A stretch of DNA of 64,000 bases, from positions 7,361 through 71,360 of the forward strand of contig DAOWBH010000001.1 of the NCBI GenBank assembly GCA_030634165.1, written 5' to 3'. The notes under the pieces are model-generated. The model was not told the origin of the DNA. It was given only the letters and a program-made list of their open reading frames with translations, and did no database searches. The translations under genes and the position numbers were made by a program. This DNA is from Spirochaetota bacterium (lineage in GTDB: Bacteria > Spirochaetota > JAGLSM01). Shown here piece by piece: positions 26,308 through 41,865 of the stretch (the first letter of the stretch is position 1; every line of letters starts with the position of its first letter).

Positions 26308-27264
26308 ATGAGAAAATATCTCAACCTGTTAATTATCACCATATTGGTTTTTAGTAAAGCGAACTCGATGCCCGCTACAAGCAGCGCGGCAGATTTTCTA
26401 AAAGTTGAAACAAGTGCCAAGGTAAATGCTCTTGGCGGAGCTTTTGTTGCAATAACGCAAGGCAGCGCGACTGCCATATACAATCCTGCCGGGTTGATAT
26501 TTCATAAGGAAAATATTTTGTCTTTTTCAGGTTTGCCCTGGATCGGCGGGACTATGTTTTCGTCTGTGACATATATCGAACCAATACCTAAATATCCGGG
26601 TATAACAATAGGTCTTGATCTAACAATGTTCTCAACTATGGAAATCAGGGAATACTCACTGACAGGGGAGGAATTAAGCTCAACTTCCCTTTTTGATATG
26701 TCCGCGAGTTTCTTTATAAGTTATCCGCTTATTAAAGATACTCTTGGAGTAGGCGCCGGAATTCATTTCATCCTCAGAGACCTTGTTGACACTTCTATTT
26801 TTGGAGCAGCTTTTGATATAGCAATTATTTACAAAACATCATTTCTTAGTTTTTACTCCCCGAAGGATAAGAACCTTACCCTGGGACTCGCCCTTAGAAA
26901 TATAGGTCCGCCTCTTTCATTTGATGAATTTTCTTCATCAGAGGGTAGTTCCGGGAGAATGCCGTCTTCTTTAAACATTGGTTTTATGTACCGTTTTTTA
27001 AAAACTGACAATTCTTCACTATACTTCACGGCTGAATTCACCTCCTATTTCAATGAAGGAGACAAAAGATATAAAATCGGATTCTCCTATTCTCCTTTTG
27101 GATTTTTATCTCTCAGGATGGGGTATCAAAATGGATTCGAACTAAAATCTTTATCAAGCGGATTTGGAATCAAAGCAGGAAAAATTACAATAGATTATGC
27201 TTTCATACCGTTAAACAGCGATATAGGTTTCATCCATTCATTCACAGCTTCTCTTAATTTCTAG
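26308..27264 (+). CDS. outer-membrane beta-barrel protein (FadL/PorV-like N-terminal NPAGL motif)
   Basis: Signal peptide. N-terminal motif SAKVNALGGAFVAITQGSATAIYNPAGL. Alternating hydrophobic strands. C-terminal ...SLNF ends in an aromatic residue. Confidence 0.55.
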   Translation: MRKYLNLLIITILVFSKANSMPATSSAADFLKVETSAKVNALGGAFVAITQGSATAIYNPAGLIFHKENILSFSGLPWIGGTMFSSVTYIEPIPKYPGITIGLDLTMFSTMEIREYSLTGEELSSTSLFDMSASFFISYPLIKDTLGVGAGIHFILRDLVDTSIFGAAFDIAIIYKTSFLSFYSPKDKNLTLGLALRNIGPPLSFDEFSSSEGSSGRMPSSLNIGFMYRFLKTDNSSLYFTAEFTSYFNEGDKRYKIGFSYSPFGFLSLRMGYQNGFELKSLSSGFGIKAGKITIDYAFIPLNSDIGFIHSFTASLNF

Positions 27265-30884: not shown

Positions 30885-31985
30885 CTAGAATCTAAGACCG
30901 GAACCAATACTGGTAAACAGCGTTCTGAAACCACTTGTATAATCAAGACCAATACTTATATCTGTCAGTAAAAATAAAATTGAATACCTCATACCAAGAC
31001 TTGTGGAGTATTTTGTGTTTGCTGAAGAATCAATAGTCATCCTCGATTCAAAACCTATCCCTGTTCTCCAATAAAACTGCCAGTTTCTATTGTAGTAATC
31101 ATTAACCAGAAAATGTAGTTCAAAATATGCAGAAATCTCTACCATCCTGTTTCTTTTTTCGTAAAACTTCCCCAGAAAACCAAAGGATAAAATAGTATTC
31201 TCCACATCAAATATAAAATCAGCTCCAAGAGCCGTTATTCCTGTATCCGGTACAGTGCTTAATAAACCCCATTGTGAAGCAAAAAGCTCCTTGGGAAGCG
31301 CCCAGTCATACCTGAATAGTACATTAAATGTAACCGATCTTGAGCGGGCATCACCCTTGTACTTGTTTCTCGCGTCATACTTCAGCTTTGAGTCCCTGTC
31401 TATTACGAGTTTTTTGTCTTTTTTCTTTTTACGCTGTTTTACTGCCTTATTTTTAATGGTCCTTTTTTTTACCGCATATACCGAAAATTTATATTTGGTT
31501 TTAAACAGATTTCTGACCTTACTTGTAAAATCAGAAAGTATTATATTTTTTTGAGCCAAAAAGTCAGAAATTGAAACCGTTGCAATAACCATTCCTGTTT
31601 TTATACTGAGAAGCCTTCCCTTAACACGGATAATACTTGAGTTTTTGAAATACTTTACTCTTCCGAAAAATATTAAATCTGCAGCAAGCCGCCTTCCAAA
31701 TCTCTGGAGAACAAGATCATTATCAAACTGTTGTTTGCTTGCTTTGTATTTTTTACGAAGTTCCAGGATATCTTCTTTTTCAACCAGATCAACATTCGGT
31801 AAATTTCTCAGAGAATTCTTTATAGAAATACTTATCTGATGAGTATAGTTTTTTATTACAGGATTTTTACCCTTATATTCCAAATCCATAATAGATACAA
31901 CCATAAACTCTTGCGCTTTTAAATTACCAAATATTAAAAGAACCAGAATAAGAATATACCCTGTTAAGAGTGAATACCTTTTCAT
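30885..31985 (-). CDS. outer-membrane beta-barrel protein, hypothetical, with a Lys-rich internal linker
   Basis: Signal peptide. C-terminal amphipathic strands ending ...GSGLRF. No catalytic motif. Confidence 0.4.
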   Translation of the reverse strand: MKRYSLLTGYILILVLLIFGNLKAQEFMVVSIMDLEYKGKNPVIKNYTHQISISIKNSLRNLPNVDLVEKEDILELRKKYKASKQQFDNDLVLQRFGRRLAADLIFFGRVKYFKNSSIIRVKGRLLSIKTGMVIATVSISDFLAQKNIILSDFTSKVRNLFKTKYKFSVYAVKKRTIKNKAVKQRKKKKDKKLVIDRDSKLKYDARNKYKGDARSRSVTFNVLFRYDWALPKELFASQWGLLSTVPDTGITALGADFIFDVENTILSFGFLGKFYEKRNRMVEISAYFELHFLVNDYYNRNWQFYWRTGIGFESRMTIDSSANTKYSTSLGMRYSILFLLTDISIGLDYTSGFRTLFTSIGSGLRF

Positions 31986-32914
31986 TTATTCTTCCCCTTT
32001 ATAATCATCCTTCTTTTAAAAAGAAACTTCGCTTTCACAAAAGAATTTTCCGCCAAAAAAAATTTCTGAGTTTTTAGATACATATTACCAAGATCAAGAT
32101 ATAGGTCAGGATCACTGGGATTCTTTTTAATATTCTTTTTTATTATTGCAATTTTATAAAGATCCTCATTGGTAAAGTAATTATCTTTGAATATATTCTT
32201 TGTTAATTCAGAATCCTTTTTTACCGATTTGTCTGTTATCTTGCCTTCCCTGCGGTTAATGGTATCAATTCCGAGTATAGCATACTGACGCAGTTCTTCC
32301 TTGTCCTTTGATTTATTATTTTCAACGATTTTTTTCAATTCTTTGATATTTGAGCTATCACCAAGCTTTGCTATAATTGCAATAGCGCTTTTGCGGATAT
32401 CACGGCTTTCACTGCTGTAGGATGATTCTTTTTTTAAAAGAGCCTCCAAATGAGGAACGCATGTCTTATCCCCTATTTTATGCAAAGCTGCAACCGCTGA
32501 CGATCGAATAATTGCGGACGGTGATAATAAATATGAAACAACCAATGAAGTATATGAAGAGTTCCCCTTTTCTCCAATAAAAGTAAGATATTCCTCAACT
32601 AAATATGGATACTTTTCAGCTTTTAGAAGTGCAACAACCTTATCCAGGCTTTTTCTATCTTCTTTCTTTACTATTAAATACATACCGAAAACAGCATTTC
32701 TCTTTACTGAATAAGTAACATTTAATTCAAGAATTTTTATGAGATAAGGAATTACCTTCTGTGTTTTAATATCCGTAAGTTTTCTCACAAACTTTATACG
32801 GTCTGTATCATTTTTCTGTTTTATAAAATCATTAAATAGATCATGCGCTTTATCAGAAGCAAAAACTGTCACAGAAAAGAGAATCAAGTAAATGATCATA
32901 ATTATTCTTCTCAT
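31982..32914 (-). CDS. HEAT/PBS-lyase-like repeat protein, secreted
   Basis: Signal peptide. Repeated HEAT-like units (e.g. RSSAVAALHKIGDKTCVPHLEALL). Confidence 0.55.
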   Translation of the reverse strand: MRRIIMIIYLILFSVTVFASDKAHDLFNDFIKQKNDTDRIKFVRKLTDIKTQKVIPYLIKILELNVTYSVKRNAVFGMYLIVKKEDRKSLDKVVALLKAEKYPYLVEEYLTFIGEKGNSSYTSLVVSYLLSPSAIIRSSAVAALHKIGDKTCVPHLEALLKKESSYSSESRDIRKSAIAIIAKLGDSSNIKELKKIVENNKSKDKEELRQYAILGIDTINRREGKITDKSVKKDSELTKNIFKDNYFTNEDLYKIAIIKKNIKKNPSDPDLYLDLGNMYLKTQKFFLAENSFVKAKFLFKRRMIIKGKNK

Positions 32915-33119
32915 TTTATCTCCTATAAATAGCCCTTGTTCAAAACCTCACGGTTAGAAAATATCAGGGTATTATTATTAAGTCTATATTCCTATACTAT
33001 AGTATATCGCAAAATTTCACTTACACCTGTAGTAAAAGCATTTTTTTCATTTACTGTTTATGGTTTAAATATACATAAGGGTCTCTATAAAAACCCAATA
33101 AAAGATCAGCGGAAATTCG

Positions 33120-33330
33120 TCCAATCCAGGCTGTCCCTTAACTGTGAAGACACCACATAATCTCAATAATTTGAGAAAATTGAGCTAATTTCAGCATATT
33201 TATAATCAAAATACTGGAAAAAACCTGCAATTTCACCTGAAATAAGTAGTTCTGAAGTATCCGATGAATTAAGGGACAGCCTGAATCCGTAAGATCCACG
33301 TTCTATCCCATTTAATTGATAGAACGCAGA
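33120..33330. ncRNA. Candidate structured RNA or leader: long-range inverted repeat (TCCAGGCTGTCCCTTAA ... TTAAGGGACAGCCTGAA) closing a roughly 160-nt domain, followed by an 8-bp hairpin
   Basis: The 15-bp perfect arms at 33124-33139 and 33268-33285 extend with a single mismatch. A second hairpin, GTTCTATC...GATAGAAC, lies at 33300-33328. Both sit inside a 580-bp non-coding region upstream of the giant kinase gene. Strand undetermined. Confidence 0.3.
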
Positions 33331-33497
33331 TCTTTATGGATGCAACTAATCTTTTCAATTATCTATAATACCAAAATAACCTCTTTATGCCTGAAACCAG
33401 GCTTGACTTTTCCAATAACTCGTTTATGATTTAATTACAAGTAGCTTTTAAAGCTATGAAATCAACCCAAAAAAAGCGAAAATAAAGAAACGATTTT

Positions 33498-36400
33498 ATG
33501 CTAAACAAGACAATCAATAAAAAGTATAAAATAATAGGAAATATAGGCGAAGGCGGGATGAGTAAAGTATATCTTGCCAGGAATATTCATGATGAAAAAA
33601 AAGTAGCAGTAAAGTTTCTCAAAACCGGAACAATATCCGACAGAATCGAAGACCTTATAAGGTTCCGCGGAGAAGCGGCAATCATATCTGTACTCAAGCA
33701 TCCAAACATAGTAAAAATCCTTGAAATAGGTGAATATCAAAAAAAACACTATATTGTTATGGAGTATCTCAATGGAGAAAGTTTATCCGATAAAATATTG
33801 CATAACAGAAAATTCAAGGTAGATGATGCCGTAGAAATAGTAAAGCAAATATGCAAAGCCCTTGCCTACATACATGGTTTAGATATAATACACATGGATT
33901 TAAAACCCGGTAACATTATAATAAACAGTAATGTGAAATTAATAGACTTTGCTCTCGCTCAAATTAAAGAATCTACTCAAATAAAAAACACGGATGAGAT
34001 TGTAGGCACATTCAGTTACATGTCTCCTGAACAAAGCGGTACTGTAAAAAGTGAAGTTGACCAGAGGAGCGATCTTTACTCTCTTGGAATAATATTTTAC
34101 CAGATGCTAAGCGGTAAACTCCCATATAGAGGAAAGAGTATAAGTTCAATTATTCACCAGCATATATCTAAAACTCCAATACCCCTTGACAAGGGAAACA
34201 GAGAGATACCTGAAATAATTCAGATGATTGTAAAAAAACTAATGGAAAAGGATCCTGACAAGAGGTATCAAAGTACCAAAGGATTATTATCTGATCTTAT
34301 AAGGTTTGAAAAGGGAGACAGATCATTTAATCTTGACCTGCTGAACATTTCTATAAAACTTACTTATAAAACCAAGCTTGTAGGAATAGATGATAAATTA
34401 AAAAAAATAAAAAGGCTTTTTGATCATAGTCTTGAAAAAAATGGTTCAGCATGTCTTATAAGCGGAGAAGCCGGATGCGGTAAGACACGGCTGTCAGAGG
34501 AATTGCATACTTATGTTTCTTCAAATGGAGGAAATTTCATTTCGGGAAAATGTTTTTCATCAGAGAATCCTGAACCATATGCTCCTTTTAAAGACGCGCT
34601 TAATATCTATATAAACAGGTTCAACAGGTATTCAGAAAACAAAAAAAAGAAAATTATAGGAAAAATAAAAAGCCGGACAGGAAACCTTGGAGAAGCCATA
34701 TTAAAGCTCAACCCGATGCTTAAGACAATAATCGGTAAAACCCCGCCCCTTGTTAAACTGGAACCTGAAAGAGAGAACGAAAGATTTCTGATGGTTGTGA
34801 GCAAATTCTTCCAGGCTCTGGGAGCAGCTGAAAACGGTCTTGTCCTGAAACTGCAGGACCTTCAATGGGCTGATGAAGGAAGCATAGAAATCCTGAGTTT
34901 CATACTTGATAATATAAACAATATTCCGTTATTCCTTATCGGCACTTACAGGGACAACGAAGTAAAACCGGGGGGGAGGCTCTCAGGTCTGATAACAACA
35001 GCAAAATCCCAACCTAAAAGTTCAGTTAAACAAAAAAAGTTTCACAAGATTCATCTGGACCTTTTTAACAAAAAAGAAATGAACAGCTTTGTATCGGATA
35101 TGCTGCGTGACAAACAGGAAAATATACAGGAGATTTCGCATTTTGTTTTCCGGAAGAGCAAGGGAAATCCGTTTTTTGCGACTGAACTGATAAAACAGCT
35201 TATACTGAACTCTGCAATTTTTTACAAAAGAAACCGTTGGCATATTAACAAGCCGGTCCTCAAGAAAACTCAAGTATCCGAATTGATAGCTGACATACTA
35301 CTTAACAGGATAAAGAATTTAAACAGGGTACAGAAAATAATACTGTCATATTCGGCAGTAATAGGCAAAAAACTGGACATATCCCTTTTATATACTCTTT
35401 TTACTAACTCAAAGAAAAAACGGATATATTTTTCAAAAGAGAGAATTAAGGAAGCTATTGATGACGCTGTTTCTCTTCAGCTGCTTGAAAAAAACAATCA
35501 GGATAGAGGAAATTCTCTTTTTATTCATGACAGAATAAAAGAAGCTTTTTACAAGAATATAAAATTAAAGAAGAGAAGACAGCTTCACCTTCAGATTGCC
35601 GGAGCCCTGGAAAATATAAATAAAACTGCACTTAAGAAGGATATTCAAAATTGTGAAGTACTGTTTGATCTGGCTCATCATTATATAGAAGCAAAGGCTC
35701 CTGAAAAATCTCTGGAATATTCTTACCAGGCAGGGATTAAATCCAAAAATAACTACGCAAATGAAAATGCCGTAAAGTACTTTACAATTGCAAGAAACAT
35801 TTTGCTAAGGAGTGGAGATAAAACCAGTAAAATGTGGATTAAATGTACTGAACATCTCGGAGAAATATACCTGACAACTGGAAATAATGACAAAGCTATC
35901 AGGATATTTAATGAGATCCTGGATTTGATGCAGACTAAGACACAGAAGGCAAACATTTATAGACAGATAAGCTCGGGATATTTTAAAAAAGGAGATCTTA
36001 AAAACTGTGAATACTACGGCAGAATCGCCTTAAAACTCCTTGGAGAAAGAGTTCCTAAAACAAAGATAATATTGATATTGAGTATGATAAAAGAAACATT
36101 CCTGCACATACTTCATTCAGTTTTTCCTGGAGTCTTCCTAAAAAAGAAAAATACTGCAAATAGTGAAAAAAGGTTGAGGCAAACACTGATAATCCAGACT
36201 TATAACTCATTAAGCTGGTCATATGTTCTATCAGATACATGGAATTTCATCAGAACCGTACTCAGAATGCTCAACATATCCGAAAGCAGAATAGGTAAAT
36301 CAAAAGAACTTGCTATGAGCATGGGATTTTATGCCGCCGGTTGTATGGCCATACCTCTTTTTAGCAGGTCGTTGAAGTATCATATCAGGGCGCTCAAAAT

Positions 36401-38114
36401 TAAGAATGAACTTGGAGATGAATGGGGATCTGCACAGTCTCTTCAATTTTTGGGATACCTCTTTGAATGGAAAGCCGATTTCCATAGAAGCATCGATTAT
36501 TTCAGTAAAAGTCTGGATATATTCAAAAAGATCGGGGACACTAAAGAAACAACAATGTCCCAAAACGGTTTAGTATCAAACTACTATAATTTATCCGATT
36601 ATAAAAAGACACTTGATATTGGTATTGAGTATTTAGATTATTGCAAGAATAGCCTGGATAAATTTGGCATAGGAGATTCATACAACAATTTTTCAAAATG
36701 CTATATTGCCATGGGTGATTTTAACAACGCCGAAAAATACGCCAGGCAGGCATTAAAAATAAGTAATGAAAAGAATATGAGTTTGAATTACTGTATTTCA
36801 AATATCTATCTCGGTGTAGTTAATATGAAAAGAAAAAATCATGATACCGCATTGAAGTATCTCAATATAGCAAAAGATGTTTTTAAAAAAAACAAGCTTC
36901 TTAAACAATATTCTGTATTCCTTTATTTTTATTTAGCTCAAGCCTATATTCAAAAGTATAGGGAAAGTTCCAATTCAAAAGTGCTACTAAAGAAAATAAA
37001 AAAAACATGCAGATCCGGAATTAAAAAATCAAAATCATGGCCGACCCACTACCCTGTAGCACTTAGAACTATGGCCAATTATTTTGCATTAATAGATAAA
37101 AGTAAAAAAGCAGAAAAACTCTTCATTGAGGCGATAAGCCTCTGCCGGAAAAGAAACCTGCAATATGATCTTGCTAAATCACTCTACGATTACGGACTTT
37201 TTCTAAAATACAAAGGCAGAGAGATTGATACCATGTTTAATCTTGAATATGCATACAAAATTTTTAAAGGAATTGATTCAAAACTATTCCTGCAAAAAAC
37301 CGGTGATCTTCTAGGCATTAAAGAAGAACATAGAGCCATTGACAGATTAAAAGACAAACAGAAACTCATTTCTCTAATCAAGGTAAGTCAGAATATCAGT
37401 TCAATTCTAAATCTCAATGATCTTTTAAAACAGATAATATCAAAAGCAATTGAAGTCACCGGTGCCCAAAGGGGACACTTATTTATTGTTAATGATAAAA
37501 CAAAAAAGCTTGAAATTAAAGCCAGCACAAGTCCATTAAATGGAAAAATCAAACATTACTCTACCAATATAGTAGAACAGACATTCAAGACCCATAAGGC
37601 CATTATAACAACAAATGCGGAAATCGAAAAAGAGTATAAACAGTTCAACAGCATTGTTGAATATGGGCTGAAATCAATCCTATGTATTCCCATTATCCGT
37701 CATAAGAAACTAATAGGCGTTTTTTATATTGATAACTATCTATCAAGCGGGGTTTTTTCCGACGAGGATGTTGAACTCTTAAATGTCTTTATGGTTCAGG
37801 CGGCAATCGCCATTGAAAACGCAATAGTATACAGCAAAATTGATAATCTGAATAAAAACCTGGAATTGGAAATATTAGACCATAAAAAGACAGGTAAAAA
37901 ACTGCTTAAAGCACGTGATCAATTGGCAAAACGTGTAGATACTCTTGAAGGTTTTCTCCCTATCTGTTCATTCTGTAAAAAAATTCGGGATGATGACGGA
38001 AAATGGAACAATATAGAAACATATATAACAAAAAGGTCAAAAGCCAAATTCAGTCACGGTCTTTGTCCTGACTGCCTGAAAAAAAACTATCCTGAACACT
38101 CAAATCTGGTTTAA
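33498..38114 (+). CDS. Giant signalling protein: Ser/Thr protein kinase + STAND-type P-loop NTPase + TPR-like array + GAF domain + C-terminal Cys/His motif
   Basis: Kinase: G-loop GNIGEGGMSKVY, VAVK Lys, catalytic HMDLKPGN, DFA in place of DFG, SPE. P-loop GEAGCGKT near 34463, followed by an hhhhD Walker B-like segment. A long helical TPR-like region follows. GAF domain at about aa 1290-1450. C-terminus CSFCKKIRDDDGKWNNIETYITKRSKAKFSHGLCPDC. Confidence 0.75.
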   Translation: MLNKTINKKYKIIGNIGEGGMSKVYLARNIHDEKKVAVKFLKTGTISDRIEDLIRFRGEAAIISVLKHPNIVKILEIGEYQKKHYIVMEYLNGESLSDKILHNRKFKVDDAVEIVKQICKALAYIHGLDIIHMDLKPGNIIINSNVKLIDFALAQIKESTQIKNTDEIVGTFSYMSPEQSGTVKSEVDQRSDLYSLGIIFYQMLSGKLPYRGKSISSIIHQHISKTPIPLDKGNREIPEIIQMIVKKLMEKDPDKRYQSTKGLLSDLIRFEKGDRSFNLDLLNISIKLTYKTKLVGIDDKLKKIKRLFDHSLEKNGSACLISGEAGCGKTRLSEELHTYVSSNGGNFISGKCFSSENPEPYAPFKDALNIYINRFNRYSENKKKKIIGKIKSRTGNLGEAILKLNPMLKTIIGKTPPLVKLEPERENERFLMVVSKFFQALGAAENGLVLKLQDLQWADEGSIEILSFILDNINNIPLFLIGTYRDNEVKPGGRLSGLITTAKSQPKSSVKQKKFHKIHLDLFNKKEMNSFVSDMLRDKQENIQEISHFVFRKSKGNPFFATELIKQLILNSAIFYKRNRWHINKPVLKKTQVSELIADILLNRIKNLNRVQKIILSYSAVIGKKLDISLLYTLFTNSKKKRIYFSKERIKEAIDDAVSLQLLEKNNQDRGNSLFIHDRIKEAFYKNIKLKKRRQLHLQIAGALENINKTALKKDIQNCEVLFDLAHHYIEAKAPEKSLEYSYQAGIKSKNNYANENAVKYFTIARNILLRSGDKTSKMWIKCTEHLGEIYLTTGNNDKAIRIFNEILDLMQTKTQKANIYRQISSGYFKKGDLKNCEYYGRIALKLLGERVPKTKIILILSMIKETFLHILHSVFPGVFLKKKNTANSEKRLRQTLIIQTYNSLSWSYVLSDTWNFIRTVLRMLNISESRIGKSKELAMSMGFYAAGCMAIPLFSRSLKYHIRALKIKNELGDEWGSAQSLQFLGYLFEWKADFHRSIDYFSKSLDIFKKIGDTKETTMSQNGLVSNYYNLSDYKKTLDIGIEYLDYCKNSLDKFGIGDSYNNFSKCYIAMGDFNNAEKYARQALKISNEKNMSLNYCISNIYLGVVNMKRKNHDTALKYLNIAKDVFKKNKLLKQYSVFLYFYLAQAYIQKYRESSNSKVLLKKIKKTCRSGIKKSKSWPTHYPVALRTMANYFALIDKSKKAEKLFIEAISLCRKRNLQYDLAKSLYDYGLFLKYKGREIDTMFNLEYAYKIFKGIDSKLFLQKTGDLLGIKEEHRAIDRLKDKQKLISLIKVSQNISSILNLNDLLKQIISKAIEVTGAQRGHLFIVNDKTKKLEIKASTSPLNGKIKHYSTNIVEQTFKTHKAIITTNAEIEKEYKQFNSIVEYGLKSILCIPIIRHKKLIGVFYIDNYLSSGVFSDEDVELLNVFMVQAAIAIENAIVYSKIDNLNKNLELEILDHKKTGKKLLKARDQLAKRVDTLEGFLPICSFCKKIRDDDGKWNNIETYITKRSKAKFSHGLCPDCLKKNYPEHSNLV

Positions 38115-38129
38115 AGTATGTTTAACTTA

Positions 38130-39215
38130 TTACAACTTGTTTAGAAATGCAGGGTTTGTTGGATTAGAAATATCATAAAGAACAACACCATCATTTCCTG
38201 TTAGAATCATAGTGTCGTCTGTAACAATTACATCATAACCATTATAACCCTGTAATCGAACCTCTTTTGACACATTGCTTACATCTGAAACATTAAATAT
38301 CTCCAAACCATCATATCCATCACAAACATAAGCATAAGCTCCGCTTACAGCCAATCCATATGGGGCATCCATTCCTATAATATCAGTAACAAACATGTTA
38401 GATATATCACTTATATTTATTACCTCAAAACGGCTGCTTGGACCGTCAATAAAAGAGCCGTCTCTTAATGTTACATAAGCAAAATTTGATTGTACGACTA
38501 CAGGATCATAGGACCGTGCGTGTGTAAGCCTGGACAAATAAACCGGATTTGCTCTATTAGAAATAGAATATACATAAACACCTTCATTACCGCCAAGAAA
38601 CAATAAATTCCTGTCTTTAACCGGAAAAATTGTTTCAATATCCCATCCAATTTCAGCATCTCCAACAGCATCAGGATTTGTTGGATTTGAAATAGAAAAC
38701 ACCTTCATTTGTGAATATTTTAATGAATACAAATAATTGTCAACAATGGAAAATCTCGCCATCGAGCCTCCAGTACTTGACAGCATGGTTGTAGCAGAAT
38801 CTGAACTGCATCCAACTCCACATCCAAACCCGGAGTCATCACCAAGATCACCGGTAGCGCCATAATAATTGCCGGTGGCATCCGGAATAATTCTAATTAG
38901 CCGGGGATCAGTAAGCATGCTAATATCATATACATGCAAATTTCCATAACTGTCAGCATATAAGGCATTACTATAAACAGCAATATCTATATTATTAGAA
39001 ATAGCTATTGTACTAAGCCGAATTGGATTTAATGGAGTAGAAATATTAAAAATATGAACACCGCGAAATCGATCATTTACAAATAATGTTGAACCTTTAA
39101 TCCAGATTTTTCCCGGCTCTGTTATTGTATTTGGATCAAGAACTGCCCGAGATTTACTATTCATCGCACTAACAAAAAATAAAAAGACTACTAAAAAACT
39201 AATTATACGTGACAT
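38130..39215 (-). CDS. secreted LVIVD-repeat beta-propeller protein
   Basis: Signal peptide. Repeated LVIVD-like units (IAVYSNALYADSYGNLHVYDIS; AYAYVCDGYDGLEIFNVSDVSNV). Convergent with the kinase gene, 15 bp apart. Confidence 0.55.
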   Translation of the reverse strand: MSRIISFLVVFLFFVSAMNSKSRAVLDPNTITEPGKIWIKGSTLFVNDRFRGVHIFNISTPLNPIRLSTIAISNNIDIAVYSNALYADSYGNLHVYDISMLTDPRLIRIIPDATGNYYGATGDLGDDSGFGCGVGCSSDSATTMLSSTGGSMARFSIVDNYLYSLKYSQMKVFSISNPTNPDAVGDAEIGWDIETIFPVKDRNLLFLGGNEGVYVYSISNRANPVYLSRLTHARSYDPVVVQSNFAYVTLRDGSFIDGPSSRFEVINISDISNMFVTDIIGMDAPYGLAVSGAYAYVCDGYDGLEIFNVSDVSNVSKEVRLQGYNGYDVIVTDDTMILTGNDGVVLYDISNPTNPAFLNKL

Positions 39216-39525
39216 AAAATTCCTCCAACTATTTAAGAAATGAAAGAGTCCTGGATACTGTCTATAAAATCTAATCGATTACTTCATTTCTTCTTGATAA
39301 ATCTGGTTTCCCACACCTAATTATACTATTATACATCATAAATGACGGCTTTTCAATTATTTCTCTGATTTAGAACAGCAAAATTAATATTATTAGCAAT
39401 ATTTTAACAAAAAATGTCAGGACTGAAAAGCAAGCAAATATTTATACAAAAATAAGATTTATCTAAGTATTTTTTTACTAATGTACTATAATTAAAGCAT
39501 AAGCTGGTAAACTGAGGTTAATAAG

Positions 39526-40191
39526 ATGATTAAAAAAGCTTTATTTGTTTTTTCTATTGTAATTCTACTAAACTCTGTCCTATTCGCTTCCAAGGGTTTT
39601 TATGTTCATTTTGGTCCATCATATGAAAATATCACTTTTACATATAATTCCTCTCCAAGTAATTCAATAAAATATGCTACAGAATATGCATTCGGGGCCG
39701 GAGCAGTTACTTTCGGCTATATGTTCAACTGGTTTTCATTTGATGTTTCATTATCTCTGGATACAATTTATACCTCAATGACCCTCTCCTCCGGCACTAA
39801 TCTTTCCAATTACACCTACACCGGTGATGAGCGACTGCATTATGGAGGAATATCCATTGACTTGAATTTCTATCCTCTGGAATTCTTTATAACTGATGGT
39901 TCTAGCAAAATCAAACCATACCTTGGGATAGGTTACGAGCTTCTCGCGTTTATTGACAATAATAACGGCGGGAACGGATTATTCGGATATTCAATAACAC
40001 TGGGTGCCGGCATAAAATGGTTCTTTGGTAAAAACGCAGAAGACTTTTATATCGGCTTCGGCTTCAAATACAGGCTTTTAACGTTAAACAACAATTATTC
40101 ATCAGGAGTCAGGTCTGATATTCCTTCGGGAGAATCTATTACAGATACAGCCTCATATAGTTTTTCTCTATATGCAGGGTATCTTTTCTAA
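39526..40191 (+). CDS. small outer-membrane beta-barrel protein, hypothetical
   Basis: Signal peptide. Alternating aromatic/Gly strands. C-terminal ...YAGYLF. Confidence 0.45.
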   Translation: MIKKALFVFSIVILLNSVLFASKGFYVHFGPSYENITFTYNSSPSNSIKYATEYAFGAGAVTFGYMFNWFSFDVSLSLDTIYTSMTLSSGTNLSNYTYTGDERLHYGGISIDLNFYPLEFFITDGSSKIKPYLGIGYELLAFIDNNNGGNGLFGYSITLGAGIKWFFGKNAEDFYIGFGFKYRLLTLNNNYSSGVRSDIPSGESITDTASYSFSLYAGYLF

Positions 40192-40215
40192 CAGCGGAGT
40201 AATTTCTGAAAGATA

Positions 40216-40874
40216 TATTCTTTATTCTTCCAAGTGAATCAGAGTACAATCCTGTAATAAAAAAGTTAACCCCAAAAATTCTGCCGGATTATAACTTTAT
40301 TTCTGTCATAGCAAATGACTCCTGCAATTTCTATTTTGTAAAATCAGGAATCGGAAAAAAGAAAGCAATATCAACCGTAAGAAAAATCTGCTCGGACTTC
40401 AAACCCCATCTTATAATATCTTCTGGATGCTGCGGAGGTTTAAAATCCTATATAAAACCATACAGTATTTTTTCACCGGTTGAAGCGCTGTCTGAAAATA
40501 ATAAGAGCTGCAGGCTTCTAAGCCTTAGAAGCAAAATATACAAATCCTCTATTTTTGAAGGAAAATCCTTTTCTGTTAAAAAACCCGCGGACAGGGGAAA
40601 AAAATTACTGATTGCAAAGTATCATCCTGAAGCTTTCTTTGTAGATATGGAAACATATTGGGTAGCAAAGACATCCAAAGATCTTGGCATCAGATGCTCT
40701 TCTTTAAGAATCTCTGTTGATAGTCTAAAAAATAATATTCCGACTTTTAGTAAAACACATATGTCTATAAGCAAAGTTAAAAACTTTTTTTTAAAACTTA
40801 TTTATAAACACAAAGCATCAAAGGCAATGAGAAAACTGTCAGGAATTATTGAAGAATTGCTTGTTCAATTTTGA
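40216..40874 (+). pseudogene. PNP/UDP-phosphorylase-family nucleosidase (MTA/SAH nucleosidase or futalosine hydrolase-like) broken by a -1 frameshift in an A7 run. There is no ATG start.
   Basis: The frame from about 40216 to 40644 encodes ...ISVIANDSCNF...LIISSGCCGGL..., matching the nucleosidase Gly-rich substrate loop. The frame from 40590 to 40874 encodes ...PEAFFVDMETYWVAKT...SLRISVD, matching the catalytic ME and RxSD region. The two frames overlap across AAAAAAA at 40608-40614. Adding one A would fuse them. A GGAG lies at 40205-40208, but only a CTG at 40216 is available as an in-frame start. Confidence 0.55.
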
Positions 40875-40933
40875 AGTTTATCTAAGAAGCTGTTGTATAA
40901 TCTGGCAAACAAAGTATTATGTGAAATTACATC

Positions 40934-41100
40934 AGTTGCAGAAACTCATTTTTTTGAAAATGCACTGTGTGAGTAGCAAATGACTCTATAAGCAAATAAA
41001 TTTACATCAACAGACATGCTTCTTTGGGTAATTAATTAAATACGTTTGCGAAGCAACTCCGAAGGAGAATTTCATTTTTAAAAAAATAGGGTTATGCAAC
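40934..41100. mobile_element. MITE-like element, copy 3 (167 bp; degenerate right TIR; about 21-bp internal insertion)
   Basis: Left TIR GTTGCAGAAACTCATTTTTTTGAAAA. Right TIR TTTTTAAAAAAATAGGGTTATGCAAC. It ends 6 bp before the hisF stop codon. Confidence 0.7.
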
Positions 41101-41106
41101 GCACCC

Positions 41107-41865
41107 CTAATCCAGTCTAACCGGAATGTCATTTTCCTTCAGATGATGCTTGACCTGATCAATACTGAGTTCACGAAAGTGAAACAATGAAGCAGCAAGA
41201 ACCGCATCCGCATGTCCATCCTGTATAACTTCAGAAAAATGAGAAAGATCTCCAGCTCCGCCTGAAGCAATTACCGGGATTTTCACTGCATCTGCTACAG
41301 CCCTGGTTAAGGCCACATCGTATCCGTTTTTAGTTCCGTCACAATCCATACTGGTTAATAGTATTTCTCCGGCACCTCTTTTTTCTACCTCAACAGCCCA
41401 CGAAACAACATCAATACCTGTCGGAGTTCTTCCTCCGTGTATATAGACTTCCCAATCTTCTGTATTTTTTTTGGCATCAATAGCAACAACAACAAATTGT
41501 GAACCAAATTGTTCAGCTCCATCGTTTATGAGCTGTGGATTTTTTACAGCCGCTGTATTTATTGATGTTTTATCCGCCCCGGCAAGAAGCATCATTCTCA
41601 TATCGTCTACGGTTCTTATTCCGCCGCCTACCGTAAAAGGAATATAAACCGATTCAGCTACCCTTTTCACAACATCTATCATTGTACCGCGGTTATCACT
41701 TGATGCTGTAATATCCAGGAATACCAGTTCATCCGCTTTCTCTTTATCATATTGAATGGCATTTTCGACCGGATCCCCAGCATCAACAATATTTACAAAG
41801 TTAACACCCTTAACCACACGGCCCTTGTCTACATCAAGACAAGGAATAATCCTCTTAGCAAGCAT
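41107..41865 (-). CDS. hisF: imidazole glycerol phosphate synthase cyclase subunit
   Basis: N-terminus [19 protein letters not shown] and a full-length (beta/alpha)8 pattern. Confidence 0.9.

What the first reader, a model, noticed from the sequence alone, without database searches (positions are those of the whole stretch)
40216..40874. PNP/MTA-nucleosidase-family gene split by a frameshift in an A7 homopolymer, with no canonical start
The N-terminal half (…LIISSGCCGGL…) and the C-terminal half (…FFVDMETYW…SLRISVD) of a purine-nucleoside-phosphorylase or MTA-nucleosidase-like enzyme (possibly futalosine hydrolase-like) lie in two frames. The frames overlap at AAAAAAA, 40608-40614. Inserting one A restores a single roughly 219-aa ORF. 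The ORF track saw only the last 75 aa. The only in-frame start candidates behind the GGAG at 40205 are CTG, ATA or ATT. This could be a homopolymer sequencing error, a true pseudogene, or slippage-based phase variation.
Basis: seen in the sequence. Interest (0 to 1): 0.5.

Follow-up and report, generated by a model that had tools for sequence, protein, structure and literature searches.

The report
Intact nucleosidase gene, probable CTG start
The reported frameshift does not exist: this is one intact, selectively maintained gene for an MTA-nucleosidase-like enzyme that most likely starts at a rare CTG codon, which is why gene finders, including the public annotation, call only its last 75 amino acids.

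Summary
The frameshift is a miscount. Window 40203-40874 (+) is a single open frame of 223 codons. Both "halves" are in that frame, and the A7 run is at 40598-40604 and reads GGA AAA AAA in frame. Five independent metagenome contigs of the same species carry the same A7 with no indel, so adding an A would break the gene.

There is no ATG, GTG or TTG in frame before codon 149.

The product is a divergent member of the MTA/SAH-nucleosidase fold:
- Pfam PNP_UDP_1 scores above its cut-off.
- An AlphaFold model (pLDDT 90) matches H. pylori MTAN at TM 0.80.
- The equivalents of catalytic Glu12, Glu174 and Asp197 are kept.

Strand beta1 and the Glu12 equivalent lie upstream of every canonical start. 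Polymorphism among six haplotypes shows purifying selection, also in codons 1-148.

CTG 40206 is the best start candidate. It sits 6 nt after GGAG, the modal spacing for this genome, and aligns with the TTG start of the closest syntenic orthologue. No initiation data exist, so the CTG start is inferred, not shown.

GenBank annotates only a 75-aa "hypothetical protein" (MCK4906118.1, Spirochaetes MAG). This is an ordinary gene with an uncommon start codon, of low to moderate interest.

The parts
40206..40874 (+). Proposed full-length gene: 222 codons plus TGA stop, an MTA/SAH-nucleosidase-like (PNP_UDP_1) enzyme that initiates at CTG 40206
   Evidence: Single open frame. Pfam PF01048 scores 34 bits against a cut-off of 25.1. 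The profile matches MTANs at E 9e-19. The AF2 model has pLDDT 89.8 and matches MTAN at TM 0.80. dN/dS is 0.18.
40196..40199 (+). Shine-Dalgarno GGAG, 6 nt upstream of CTG 40206
   Evidence: GGAG with a 5-9 nt spacer occurs at 14 of 50 called starts in the window (mode 6-7 nt) but before only 0.9% of all CTG triplets. It is identical in all six assemblies.
40206..40208 (+). CTG, the most likely initiation codon (inferred)
   Evidence: It aligns with the TTG start of the closest distinct orthologue, P0002 (L082 2459). It is the only candidate with an SD and the only one that gives a complete strand beta1. CTG is fixed in all six assemblies.
40215..40226 (+). Alternative near-cognate start candidates: ATA 40215-40217 and ATT 40224-40226
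   Evidence: Both are in frame. Neither has GGAG at 5-9 nt. They would shorten or delete strand beta1 (residues 3-9).
40242..40244 (+). Glu14 codon, the equivalent of E. coli MTAN catalytic Glu12. It lies upstream of every canonical start.
   Evidence: Nearly invariant in alignment A2. The profile alignment to 1jys and 3bl6 places it on the MTAN glutamate.
40281..40283 (+). Codon 27: CTG in the window and L172, TTG in L001, L169, L170 and L171. The TTG made gene callers report a 197-aa product there.
   Evidence: No SD lies upstream. A product starting here would lack beta1 and Glu14.
40598..40604 (+). The A7 homopolymer, in frame (GGA AAA AAA); not a lesion
   Evidence: It is identical in six assemblies with no indel.
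40644..40652 (+). Asp148-Met149-Glu150, the equivalent of MTAN Glu172-Met173-Glu174 (ribose-binding Glu). ATG 40647 is an internal Met, not the start.
   Evidence: These columns are invariant in A2 and align to VEME of the MTANs.
40719..40721 (+). Asp173 codon, the equivalent of MTAN catalytic Asp197
   Evidence: Invariant in A2. It aligns to the 'SD' of RAISD in MTANs.
40647..40874 (+). The 75-aa stub that ORF finders and GenBank call (MCK4906118.1, 'hypothetical protein', Spirochaetes bacterium MAG)
39526..40191 (+). Upstream same-strand gene (221 aa, signal-peptide-like N-terminus, C-terminal Phe, no Pfam hit). Its TAA ends 14 nt before CTG 40206, so it is probably co-transcribed and possibly translationally coupled.
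   Evidence: No terminator-like site lies between the two genes. The gene is present in strain contigs L169 and L172.

Best explanation
Window 40206-40874 (+) is one intact, expressed gene. It encodes a roughly 222-residue enzyme of the MTA/SAH-nucleosidase (MTAN) branch of the PNP_UDP_1 superfamily, from an uncultured spirochaete. It belongs to a small, uncharacterised environmental subfamily.

There is no frameshift. The gene escapes ORF finders because its initiation codon is the near-cognate CTG at 40206, read by initiator tRNA as fMet. A GGAG Shine-Dalgarno 6 nt upstream positions the ribosome. The upstream gene's stop codon lies only 14 nt before the CTG, so terminating ribosomes may help initiation.

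A weak start would keep the enzyme at a low level. The enzyme most likely cleaves the N-glycosidic bond of an adenine nucleoside, using a Glu-activated water, a ribose-binding Glu and an Asp that protonates the base. The 5' substituent of its substrate is unknown.

Shown: the single frame, fold and family, conserved catalytic residues, purifying selection, the SD, and the homology of the CTG to an orthologue's start codon. Inferred: that CTG is the codon actually used, low expression, coupling, and hydrolase chemistry.
For: - Single frame: 223 codons with both motifs in frame. The frame, the A7 run and the GGAG-N6-CTG 5' end are identical, without indels, in five other assemblies from different samples.
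- Selection: window against L001 gives dS 0.079, dN 0.014 and omega 0.18. For codons 1-148, upstream of the first ATG, omega is 0.17. Among six haplotypes there are 26 segregating sites, 15 synonymous and 11 non-synonymous (P = 5e-5 against neutrality). Codons 1-148 have 8 and 6 (P = 0.004). There are no stops or indels. All haplotypes share the CTG, so this selection acted after the CTG arose.
- Family and fold: PF01048 is above its cut-off. Profile A2 matches solved MTANs at E 9e-19 to 1e-8, with Glu14, Asp148-Met149-Glu150 and Asp173 on MTAN Glu12, Glu172-Met173-Glu174 and Asp197. The AF2 model has pLDDT 89.8 and pTM 0.88, with beta1 at residues 3-9. Foldseek's best hit is H. pylori MTAN/aminodeoxyfutalosine nucleosidase at TM 0.80.
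- Need for an upstream start: beta1 and Glu14 precede TTG-27 and ATG-149.
- CTG specifically: P0002 aligns query residues 2-218 to its residues 1-214. Its start is TTG preceded by an AAGGA-type SD at the same spacing. Orthology is supported by synteny: L082, L084 and L085 are also convergent with hisA/hisF, and L086 carries the window's 26.7-30.4 kb genes upstream. GGAG at 5-9 nt occurs at 28% of called starts, mode 6-7 nt, against 0.9% of CTG triplets. CTG 40206 has a 6-nt spacer, and ATA and ATT have no GGAG.
- Lineage-specific change: in an HMM survey of about 85 family loci, only this species group lacks a canonical start at the homologous N-terminus apart from a few partial or truncated matches.
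- Literature: CUG, AUA, AUU and AUC initiate at about 1-2% of AUG in E. coli (bioRxiv 10.1101/063800). Conserved AUU/AUA starts with strong SDs give about 10% in S. aureus (PMC13009471). Termination-reinitiation keeps 20-60% efficiency at a 14-nt gap (PMC10666635).
Against: - There is no direct evidence of initiation: no N-terminal peptide and no ribosome profiling. The organism is uncultured.
- CUG is a poor initiator in E. coli, and confirmed bacterial CUG starts are very rare.
- The TTG-to-CTG homology rests on one orthologue at 33% identity. Other orthologues start 1-5 residues away from that position.
- The five strain contigs come largely from one study, so they are not widely independent populations.
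- NCBIfam scores for MtnN, MqnB and HpnG are all far below their cut-offs, so the substrate is unknown.
- The subfamily lacks about 25 residues that MTANs have between profile positions 109 and 110.
Confidence: 0.7

Rival explanations
1. The gene is intact and translated, but initiation is at ATA 40215 or ATT 40224 rather than CTG 40206.
For: Both are in-frame table-11 near-cognate starts. AUA and AUU are the experimentally confirmed non-canonical starts in E. coli and S. aureus (10.1101/063800; PMC13009471). Both lie upstream of Glu14.
Against: Neither has GGAG at 5-9 nt; the spacers would be 15 and 24 nt. ATA would leave 5 residues before the conserved Pro and ATT would leave 2, whereas every orthologue has at least 7. 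Strand beta1 (residues 3-9, pLDDT about 89) would be shortened or lost. Neither aligns with an orthologue's start.
Confidence: 0.12
2. The gene recently lost its start codon (TTG or ATG to CTG). It is an untranslated or barely translated pseudogene that has not yet accumulated disabling mutations.
For: There is no canonical start. All other family members surveyed have one. CUG initiates poorly in E. coli (10.1101/063800).
Against: CTG is shared by both haplotype groups, which have since diverged to dS of about 0.08. Non-synonymous changes are significantly depleted (P = 5e-5; codons 1-148, P = 0.004). There are no stops or indels despite five A runs of 6 or more inside the ORF. The SD is retained at optimal spacing, and the catalytic residues are intact.
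Confidence: 0.1
3. Only N-terminally truncated products are made: 75 aa from ATG 40647 as annotated in GenBank, or 197 aa from TTG 40281 in the other haplotype.
For: These are what gene callers output.
Against: Codons 1-148 are under purifying selection and homologous to full-length enzymes. ATG 40647 is the invariant Met of the D-M-E active-site motif. TTG 40281 is CTG in the window and L172, and has no SD. Truncated products lack beta1, Glu14 and, for the 75-aa stub, most of the fold.
Confidence: 0.04
4. One reading: the gene is split by a frameshift at a homopolymer, through sequencing error, pseudogenisation or slippage-based phase variation.
For: An A7 run exists inside the gene, at 40598-40604. 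It is formally an A_AAA_AAA slippery heptamer in phase.
Against: Both halves are in the same frame with A7. Six assemblies agree on A7 with no length variation. A6 or A8 would give a stop within about 10 codons. The window has 118 A/T runs of 7 or more, so the run is unremarkable.
Confidence: 0.02

Closest known systems
5'-methylthioadenosine/S-adenosylhomocysteine nucleosidase (MTAN, MtnN/Pfs), e.g. E. coli 1jys, S. aureus 3bl6, H. pylori 5cce
   Same: Same fold: TM 0.80 to 5cce and profile E 9e-19 to 3bl6. Similar length. The equivalents of Glu12, Met173-Glu174 and Asp197 are conserved, as is the G-x-x-G-G/x-L loop (SSGCCGGL against TGSAGGL).
   Different: Only about 14-18% identity. NCBIfam equivalog scores are far below cut-off: 28.6 against 169, and 18.8 against 73.8. 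About 25 residues are missing in the region that in MTAN follows beta5. That region contributes to the 5'-alkylthio pocket (my knowledge, not tested), so the substrate may differ. The C-terminal helix is long (residues 188-222).
Futalosine / aminodeoxyfutalosine hydrolase (MqnB; H. pylori 4bmx; TIGR03664)
   Same: Same fold and catalytic layout. H. pylori MTAN/AFL nucleosidase structures are the top structural hits. The TIGR03664 alignment covers the N-terminus, residues 9-82.
   Different: The score is 26.8 bits against a cut-off of 124.7. No mqn genes were seen next to it. The rest of the genome is not available.
HpnG hopanoid-associated phosphorylase (TIGR03468)
   Same: It is the best NCBIfam hit by E-value (6.8e-7, residues 45-183) and has a similar short architecture.
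   Different: The score is 29.1 bits against a cut-off of 187.1. There are no hopanoid genes in the neighbourhood: the neighbours are an LVIVD protein, an OMP-like gene and the his operon.
Bacterial genes with conserved near-cognate start codons (E. coli infC and pcnB, AUU; S. aureus infC, ccpN and cvfC1, AUA/AUU)
   Same: The start is a non-AUG/GUG/UUG codon, fixed in the population, preceded by a well-placed SD, and missed or misplaced by automatic annotation. The presumed effect is low translation (10.1101/063800; PMC13009471).
   Different: The codon here is CUG, not AUU or AUA. The SD is a plain GGAG, not an extended one. There is no experimental evidence and no known regulatory rationale. 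The codon is specific to one species-level lineage rather than conserved across genera.

Membership tests
PNP_UDP_1 phosphorylase/nucleosidase superfamily (Pfam PF01048) | Whole-protein score at or above the Pfam gathering threshold | tested here: met
   34.0 bits against a cut-off of 25.1, E 2.5e-8
PNP_UDP_1 phosphorylase/nucleosidase superfamily (Pfam PF01048) | Alpha/beta fold with a central mixed sheet, as in solved members | tested here: met
   AF2 model with pLDDT 89.8. Foldseek gives TM 0.80 and E 4.5e-16 to 5cce, with 695 PDB hits at E <= 1e-3.
MTA/SAH nucleosidase (MtnN; TIGR01704, NF004079) | Score above the NCBIfam equivalog cut-off | tested here: not met
   18.8 against 73.8, and 28.6 against 169
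MTA/SAH nucleosidase (MtnN; TIGR01704, NF004079) | Catalytic Glu12, Glu174 and Asp197 (E. coli numbering) | tested here: met
   Glu14, Glu150 and Asp173 align to them in the profile alignment. They are invariant or nearly invariant in the subfamily.
MTA/SAH nucleosidase (MtnN; TIGR01704, NF004079) | Hydrolysis of MTA, SAH or 5'-deoxyadenosine | not testable with these tools
   This needs an enzyme assay.
Futalosine hydrolase MqnB (TIGR03664) | Score above the equivalog cut-off | tested here: not met
   26.8 against 124.7; NF006087 gives 12.1 against 213
Futalosine hydrolase MqnB (TIGR03664) | Co-occurrence with mqnA, mqnC and mqnD in the genome | not testable with these tools
   Only 64 kb of the genome is available. 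The neighbours scanned with Pfam gave no mqn family, but most of the window's genes were not scanned.
HpnG hopanoid-associated phosphorylase (TIGR03468) | Score above cut-off and linkage to hopanoid (shc/hpn) genes | tested here: not met
   29.1 against 187.1. The neighbours are an LVIVD protein, an OMP-like protein and the his operon.
Gene with a near-cognate (non-AUG/GUG/UUG) initiation codon | No canonical start upstream of residues that the protein needs | tested here: met
   The first canonical start is codon 149 (codon 27 in the other haplotype). Strand beta1 (residues 3-9) and Glu14 lie upstream.
Gene with a near-cognate (non-AUG/GUG/UUG) initiation codon | Ribosome-binding site at functional spacing from the candidate codon | tested here: met
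   GGAG with a 6-nt spacer, the modal spacing in this genome. Enrichment is about 30-fold over CTG triplets in general.
Gene with a near-cognate (non-AUG/GUG/UUG) initiation codon | The candidate codon is homologous to orthologues' start codons | tested here: met
   P0002's TTG start aligns with CTG 40206. Other orthologues start within 1-5 residues of it.
Gene with a near-cognate (non-AUG/GUG/UUG) initiation codon | The coding region is under purifying selection after the codon arose | tested here: met
   omega 0.18. The ratio of synonymous to non-synonymous changes gives P = 5e-5, with no stops or indels in six haplotypes.
Gene with a near-cognate (non-AUG/GUG/UUG) initiation codon | Direct evidence of initiation at that codon (N-terminal peptide, initiation-site ribosome profiling, reporter mutagenesis) | not testable with these tools
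   Uncultured organism; no such data are accessible here.
Frameshifted gene (pseudogene, programmed frameshift or phase-variable homopolymer) | The N- and C-terminal parts of the homologous protein lie in different reading frames | tested here: not met
   All motifs are in one frame. A single HMM hit spans the frame.
Frameshifted gene (pseudogene, programmed frameshift or phase-variable homopolymer) | Length variation of the homopolymer between strains or assemblies | tested here: not met
   A7 in all six assemblies and no gaps in the alignment. Read-level data are not available.

The most novel reading that the evidence does not exclude
The CTG start is an adaptive, fixed feature. It keeps a nucleosidase of new substrate specificity at very low level and makes its synthesis depend on ribosomes terminating on the upstream outer-membrane-protein-like gene (14-nt gap). 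The subfamily is MTAN-like, lacks the usual 5'-alkylthio-pocket segment, and is conserved beside the his operon in related uncultured bacteria. This would be a natural, population-conserved bacterial CUG-initiated gene. Few or none of these are experimentally established.
Probability: 0.2. Interest if true: 0.4.

Novelty: new member of a known kind. Interest (0 to 1): 0.22.

Why it matters
The main value is as a correction. The claimed frameshift is not real, and the public record for this MAG under-annotates an intact enzyme gene as a 75-aa hypothetical protein. Standard gene callers accept only ATG, GTG and TTG, so the gene is called as a 75-aa or 197-aa fragment. That distorts protein databases, where the cluster representative is an N-terminally truncated 197-aa sequence.

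Biologically, it is a well-supported candidate for a natural CUG-initiated bacterial gene. It has an SD at optimal spacing, homology to an orthologue's start codon, and purifying selection after the CTG arose. Such cases are rarely documented and are useful test cases for start-site prediction. The enzyme subfamily itself is rare: only 9 representatives at E < 1e-10 among 1.84 billion. It is uncharacterised.

Tried and rejected
- Frameshift, phase variation or sequencing error at A7: rejected.
- Genome-contig scan with the protein: no relative found. A scan with HisF gave at most 71% identity, scattered over many phyla. No close species representative is available, so the rest of the genome could not be checked for a second MTAN or for mqn genes.
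- Word-indexed protein search: only one hit, P0001. The exhaustive search was needed to find orthologues.
- Rfam scan of the window: nothing, so there is no riboswitch or leader upstream.
- Promoter and terminator scan of 39200-41150: promoter-like sites at chance level and no terminator. This is uninformative except that nothing separates the gene from the upstream ORF.
- RNA fold of 40166-40246: not more structured than shuffles (z 0.58), so there is no evidence for a structure-based start mechanism.
- Fusion with the upstream ORF by read-through: rejected. The two are in different frames, and an in-frame TAA lies at 40200-40202.
- Second family member in the window: none.
- Source names for orthologues: only one, 'nucleoside phosphorylase', so there is no functional lead.
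- Recurrent loss of canonical starts across the family: rejected. Apart from a few partial or truncated matches, it is confined to this species group.

Full report
**1. Checking the observation**

I translated the region in all three frames and walked the frame codon by codon. Window 40203-40874 (+) is one uninterrupted frame of 223 sense codons. It is bounded by TAA 40200-40202 and TGA 40872-40874.

- LIISSGCCGGL starts at 40410.
- FFVDMETYW starts at 40635.
- SLRISVD starts at 40701.

The A7 run lies at 40598-40604, not 40608-40614, and reads GGA AAA AAA (G-K-K) in frame. GGAG is at 40196-40199, not 40205.

Both other frames reach a stop within a few codons of the run. Inserting an A would break the gene rather than restore it. 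A/T runs of 7 or more occur 118 times in this 36.7% G+C window, so the run is unremarkable.

What holds up is the second half of the observation.
- No ATG, GTG or TTG occurs in frame before ATG 40647 (codon 149).
- The mechanical ORF list shows only a 75-aa ORF, 40647-40874.
- The in-frame near-cognates at the 5' end are CTG 40206, ATA 40215 and ATT 40224.
- A 223-codon open frame has a chance probability of about 6e-6 at this window's stop-codon frequency.
- Of 61 stop-to-stop frames of 120 codons or more, this is the only one, apart from antisense shadows of real genes, whose first canonical start lies more than 40 codons in.

**2. Independent copies**

The word-indexed protein search found one relative, P0001 (97% identity, 197 aa). 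Its cluster has six members.

One member is the 75-aa stub encoded at window 40647-40871. It is GenBank MCK4906118.1, "hypothetical protein KAS64_01130 [Spirochaetes bacterium]" (MAG). The public annotation therefore calls only the C-terminal third of this gene.

I fetched the DNA of five strain contigs: L001 and L169-L172, from samples SAMN18200491, SAMN18200492, SAMN18200493, SAMN18200495 and SRR13892586. All align to the window without a single gap across the ORF. All have A7, and all have the identical 5' end TAA-CAGC-GGAG-TAATTT-CTG.

Two haplotype groups exist. They differ at codon 27, among other sites. It is CTG in the window and L172, and TTG in the other four contigs. That difference is why gene callers emit either a 75-aa or a 197-aa product.

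**3. Selection**

Nei-Gojobori estimates for the window against L001:

| Region | dS | dN | omega |
|---|---|---|---|
| Whole ORF | 0.079 | 0.014 | 0.18 |
| Codons 1-148 (upstream of the first ATG) | 0.061 | 0.010 | 0.17 |

Across the six sequences there are 26 segregating sites, 15 synonymous and 11 non-synonymous. The binomial P against the neutral site ratio is 5e-5. Codons 1-148 alone have 8 synonymous and 6 non-synonymous (P = 0.004). There is no nonsense or frameshift allele.

All haplotypes share CTG 40206, so this purifying selection acted after the CTG arose. That argues against a dead gene.

**4. What the protein is**

*Family scans*
- Pfam PNP_UDP_1 scores 34 bits against a cut-off of 25.1.
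- NCBIfam gives only weak hits, all far below cut-off: HpnG 29 against 187, MtnN 29 against 169, and futalosine hydrolase 27 against 125.

*Exhaustive search*
The exhaustive phmmer search of 1.84 billion representatives found 102 hits at E <= 1e-3 but only 9 at E < 1e-10. This is a small, divergent, environmental subfamily. The only name any source gives is "nucleoside phosphorylase".

*Conserved residues*
An 11-sequence alignment, A2, has these invariant positions: G49, G51, G75, S124, P128, D148, M149, E150, W153 and D173. E14 is nearly invariant.

A profile of A2 hits solved MTA/SAH nucleosidases best: 3bl6 at E 9e-19 and E. coli 1jys at 3e-15. The printed alignments map the residues as follows:

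| This protein | E. coli MTAN |
|---|---|
| E14 | Glu12 |
| D148-M149-E150 | Glu172-Met173-Glu174 |
| D173 | Asp197 |

The same alignment shows that MTANs carry an insertion of about 25 residues that the subfamily lacks.

*Structure*
The AlphaFold2 model has pLDDT 89.8 and pTM 0.88. Strand beta1 is residues 3-9 (KDIFFIL), at pLDDT of about 89. Foldseek against the PDB gives H. pylori MTAN/aminodeoxyfutalosine nucleosidase first (5cce, TM 0.80, E 4.5e-16).

It is an MTAN-like N-ribosyl hydrolase with an unknown 5' substituent preference.

**5. Orthology and the N-terminus**

tblastn of the neighbours of family members against the window shows conserved synteny.
- In L082, L084 and L085 the gene is convergent with the 3' end of hisA or hisF, as in the window (hisF is 41107-41865, minus strand).
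- In L086 the genes directly upstream correspond to window 26.7-30.4 kb.

These are true orthologues. Their start codons are TTG (L082/L083, P0002), ATG (L084, L085, L089) and GVG-class GTG (L086-L088).

phmmer aligns residues 2-218 of the window frame to residues 1-214 of P0002. CTG 40206 is therefore the codon homologous to P0002's TTG start. The two 5' ends compare as follows:
- Orthologue: aaaaGGActttca-TTG-AAA-CGT-ATT-TTT
- Window: GGAGtaattt-CTG-AAA-GAT-ATA-TTC

I ran an HMM survey of stop-to-stop frames in about 85 family loci. Apart from a few partial or truncated matches, only this species group lacks a canonical start before HMM position 12. The change is lineage-specific.

**6. Which codon starts translation**

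The genome uses Shine-Dalgarno sites. GGAG with a 5-9 nt spacer precedes 14 of 50 called starts, with a mode of 6-7 nt. It precedes only 0.9% of all CTG triplets in the window.

| Candidate | GGAG at 5-9 nt | Residues before the conserved Pro | Effect on beta1 |
|---|---|---|---|
| CTG 40206 | yes, 6-nt spacer | 8 | complete |
| ATA 40215 | no (15 nt) | 5 | shortened |
| ATT 40224 | no (24 nt) | 2 | deleted |

All orthologues have at least 7 residues before that Pro. TTG-27 and ATG-149 lie downstream of beta1 and of the Glu12 equivalent, and ATG 40647 encodes the invariant Met of the D-M-E motif. I therefore favour CTG 40206, giving fMet-KDIFFILPSESEY....

The local RNA is not unusually structured (z 0.58). 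No terminator-like element separates the gene from the upstream ORF 39526-40191, whose TAA ends 14 nt before the CTG.

From the literature:
- CUG, AUA, AUU and AUC initiate at about 1-2% of AUG in E. coli, and only infC and pcnB (both AUU) are confirmed there (bioRxiv 10.1101/063800).
- S. aureus has conserved AUU/AUA starts with strong SDs that give about 10% of AUG (PMC13009471).
- Termination-reinitiation retains 20-60% efficiency at a 14-nt gap in E. coli (PMC10666635).

Low-level expression, possibly helped by coupling, is thus plausible. It is inferred, not shown.

**7. Rivals**

- A start at ATA or ATT remains possible (about 0.12).
- A recently silenced pseudogene is disfavoured by selection, the retained SD and the intact catalytic residues (about 0.1).
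- Truncated products as the only products are very unlikely.
- The frameshift or phase-variation idea is refuted for the assembled sequences.
- A sequencing error at the start codon is excluded, because six assemblies agree.

**8. Comparison with known systems and verdict**

In mechanism and fold, the protein is MTAN-like. It fails the curated equivalog thresholds of MtnN, MqnB and HpnG, so I file it only under the PNP_UDP_1 superfamily, MTAN-like branch.

In gene structure, it is a new example of a known but rare phenomenon: a near-cognate start codon that automatic annotation misses. It is not a new kind of element.

Interest is low to moderate. The headline claim (the frameshift) is an artefact of reading. 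The residue is a probable CUG-initiated, under-annotated enzyme gene in an uncultured spirochaete.

Noticed in passing
window 40140-40920 compared with L001 and L169-L172: The two haplotype groups appear as mosaics. L170 carries the L001-type 5' part but the window-type 3' end (40850-40919). L172 carries the window-type 5' part but the L001-type 3' end. This suggests recombination between co-existing strains.
   Followed up: partly
window 30885-40191: In the related contig L086 the orthologue lies directly next to the homologues of window genes 26.7-30.4 kb (a UPF0164/PorV-like protein, a 188-aa protein, YjeF/NAD(P)HX repair and a 362-aa protein). In the window about 10 kb lies in between: a 366-aa protein, a HEAT-repeat protein, a 1538-aa kinase, an LVIVD-repeat protein and an OMP-like gene. 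This is a lineage-specific insertion or rearrangement.
   Followed up: partly
window 33498-38114 (+): A 1538-aa ORF. Its translation shows an N-terminal Ser/Thr-kinase-like region (HMDLKPGNI, DFALAQ) and a P-loop (GEAGCGKT). These are followed by a long repeat-rich middle, a GAF-like region, and a C-terminal Cys-rich motif (CSFCKKIRDDDGKW...CPDC). No family scan was run on it.
   Followed up: no
window 40598-40604: The A7 run is formally an in-phase X_XXY_YYZ slippery heptamer (A_AAA_AAA). A -1 slip would terminate after about 10 codons. There is no stimulatory structure and no sign that this matters; such runs are abundant (118 of length 7 or more in the window).
   Followed up: partly
window 26308-27264 (+): This ORF matches Pfam UPF0164 (25 bits, above its cut-off) and, weakly, PorV. 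Both are outer-membrane-protein families.
   Followed up: no
window 39526-40191 (+): The upstream 221-aa ORF has a signal-peptide-like N-terminus and a C-terminal ...YAGYLF ending typical of outer-membrane beta-barrels, but no Pfam hit. It is present in strain contigs L169 and L172. tblastn against the window found no counterpart among the neighbours of orthologues L082 and L084-L087.
   Followed up: partly
L090, L097, L130 (metagenome loci): In the HMM survey these more distant family loci also showed no canonical start before HMM position 12. Their alignments begin late (HMM position 21 or later), so this is probably divergent N-termini rather than the same phenomenon.
   Followed up: no
protein database cluster of P0001: The cluster representative in the large protein collection is the N-terminally truncated 197-aa call. 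The cluster also holds two 75-aa stubs. The full-length protein of this species is absent from the databases searched.
   Followed up: yes
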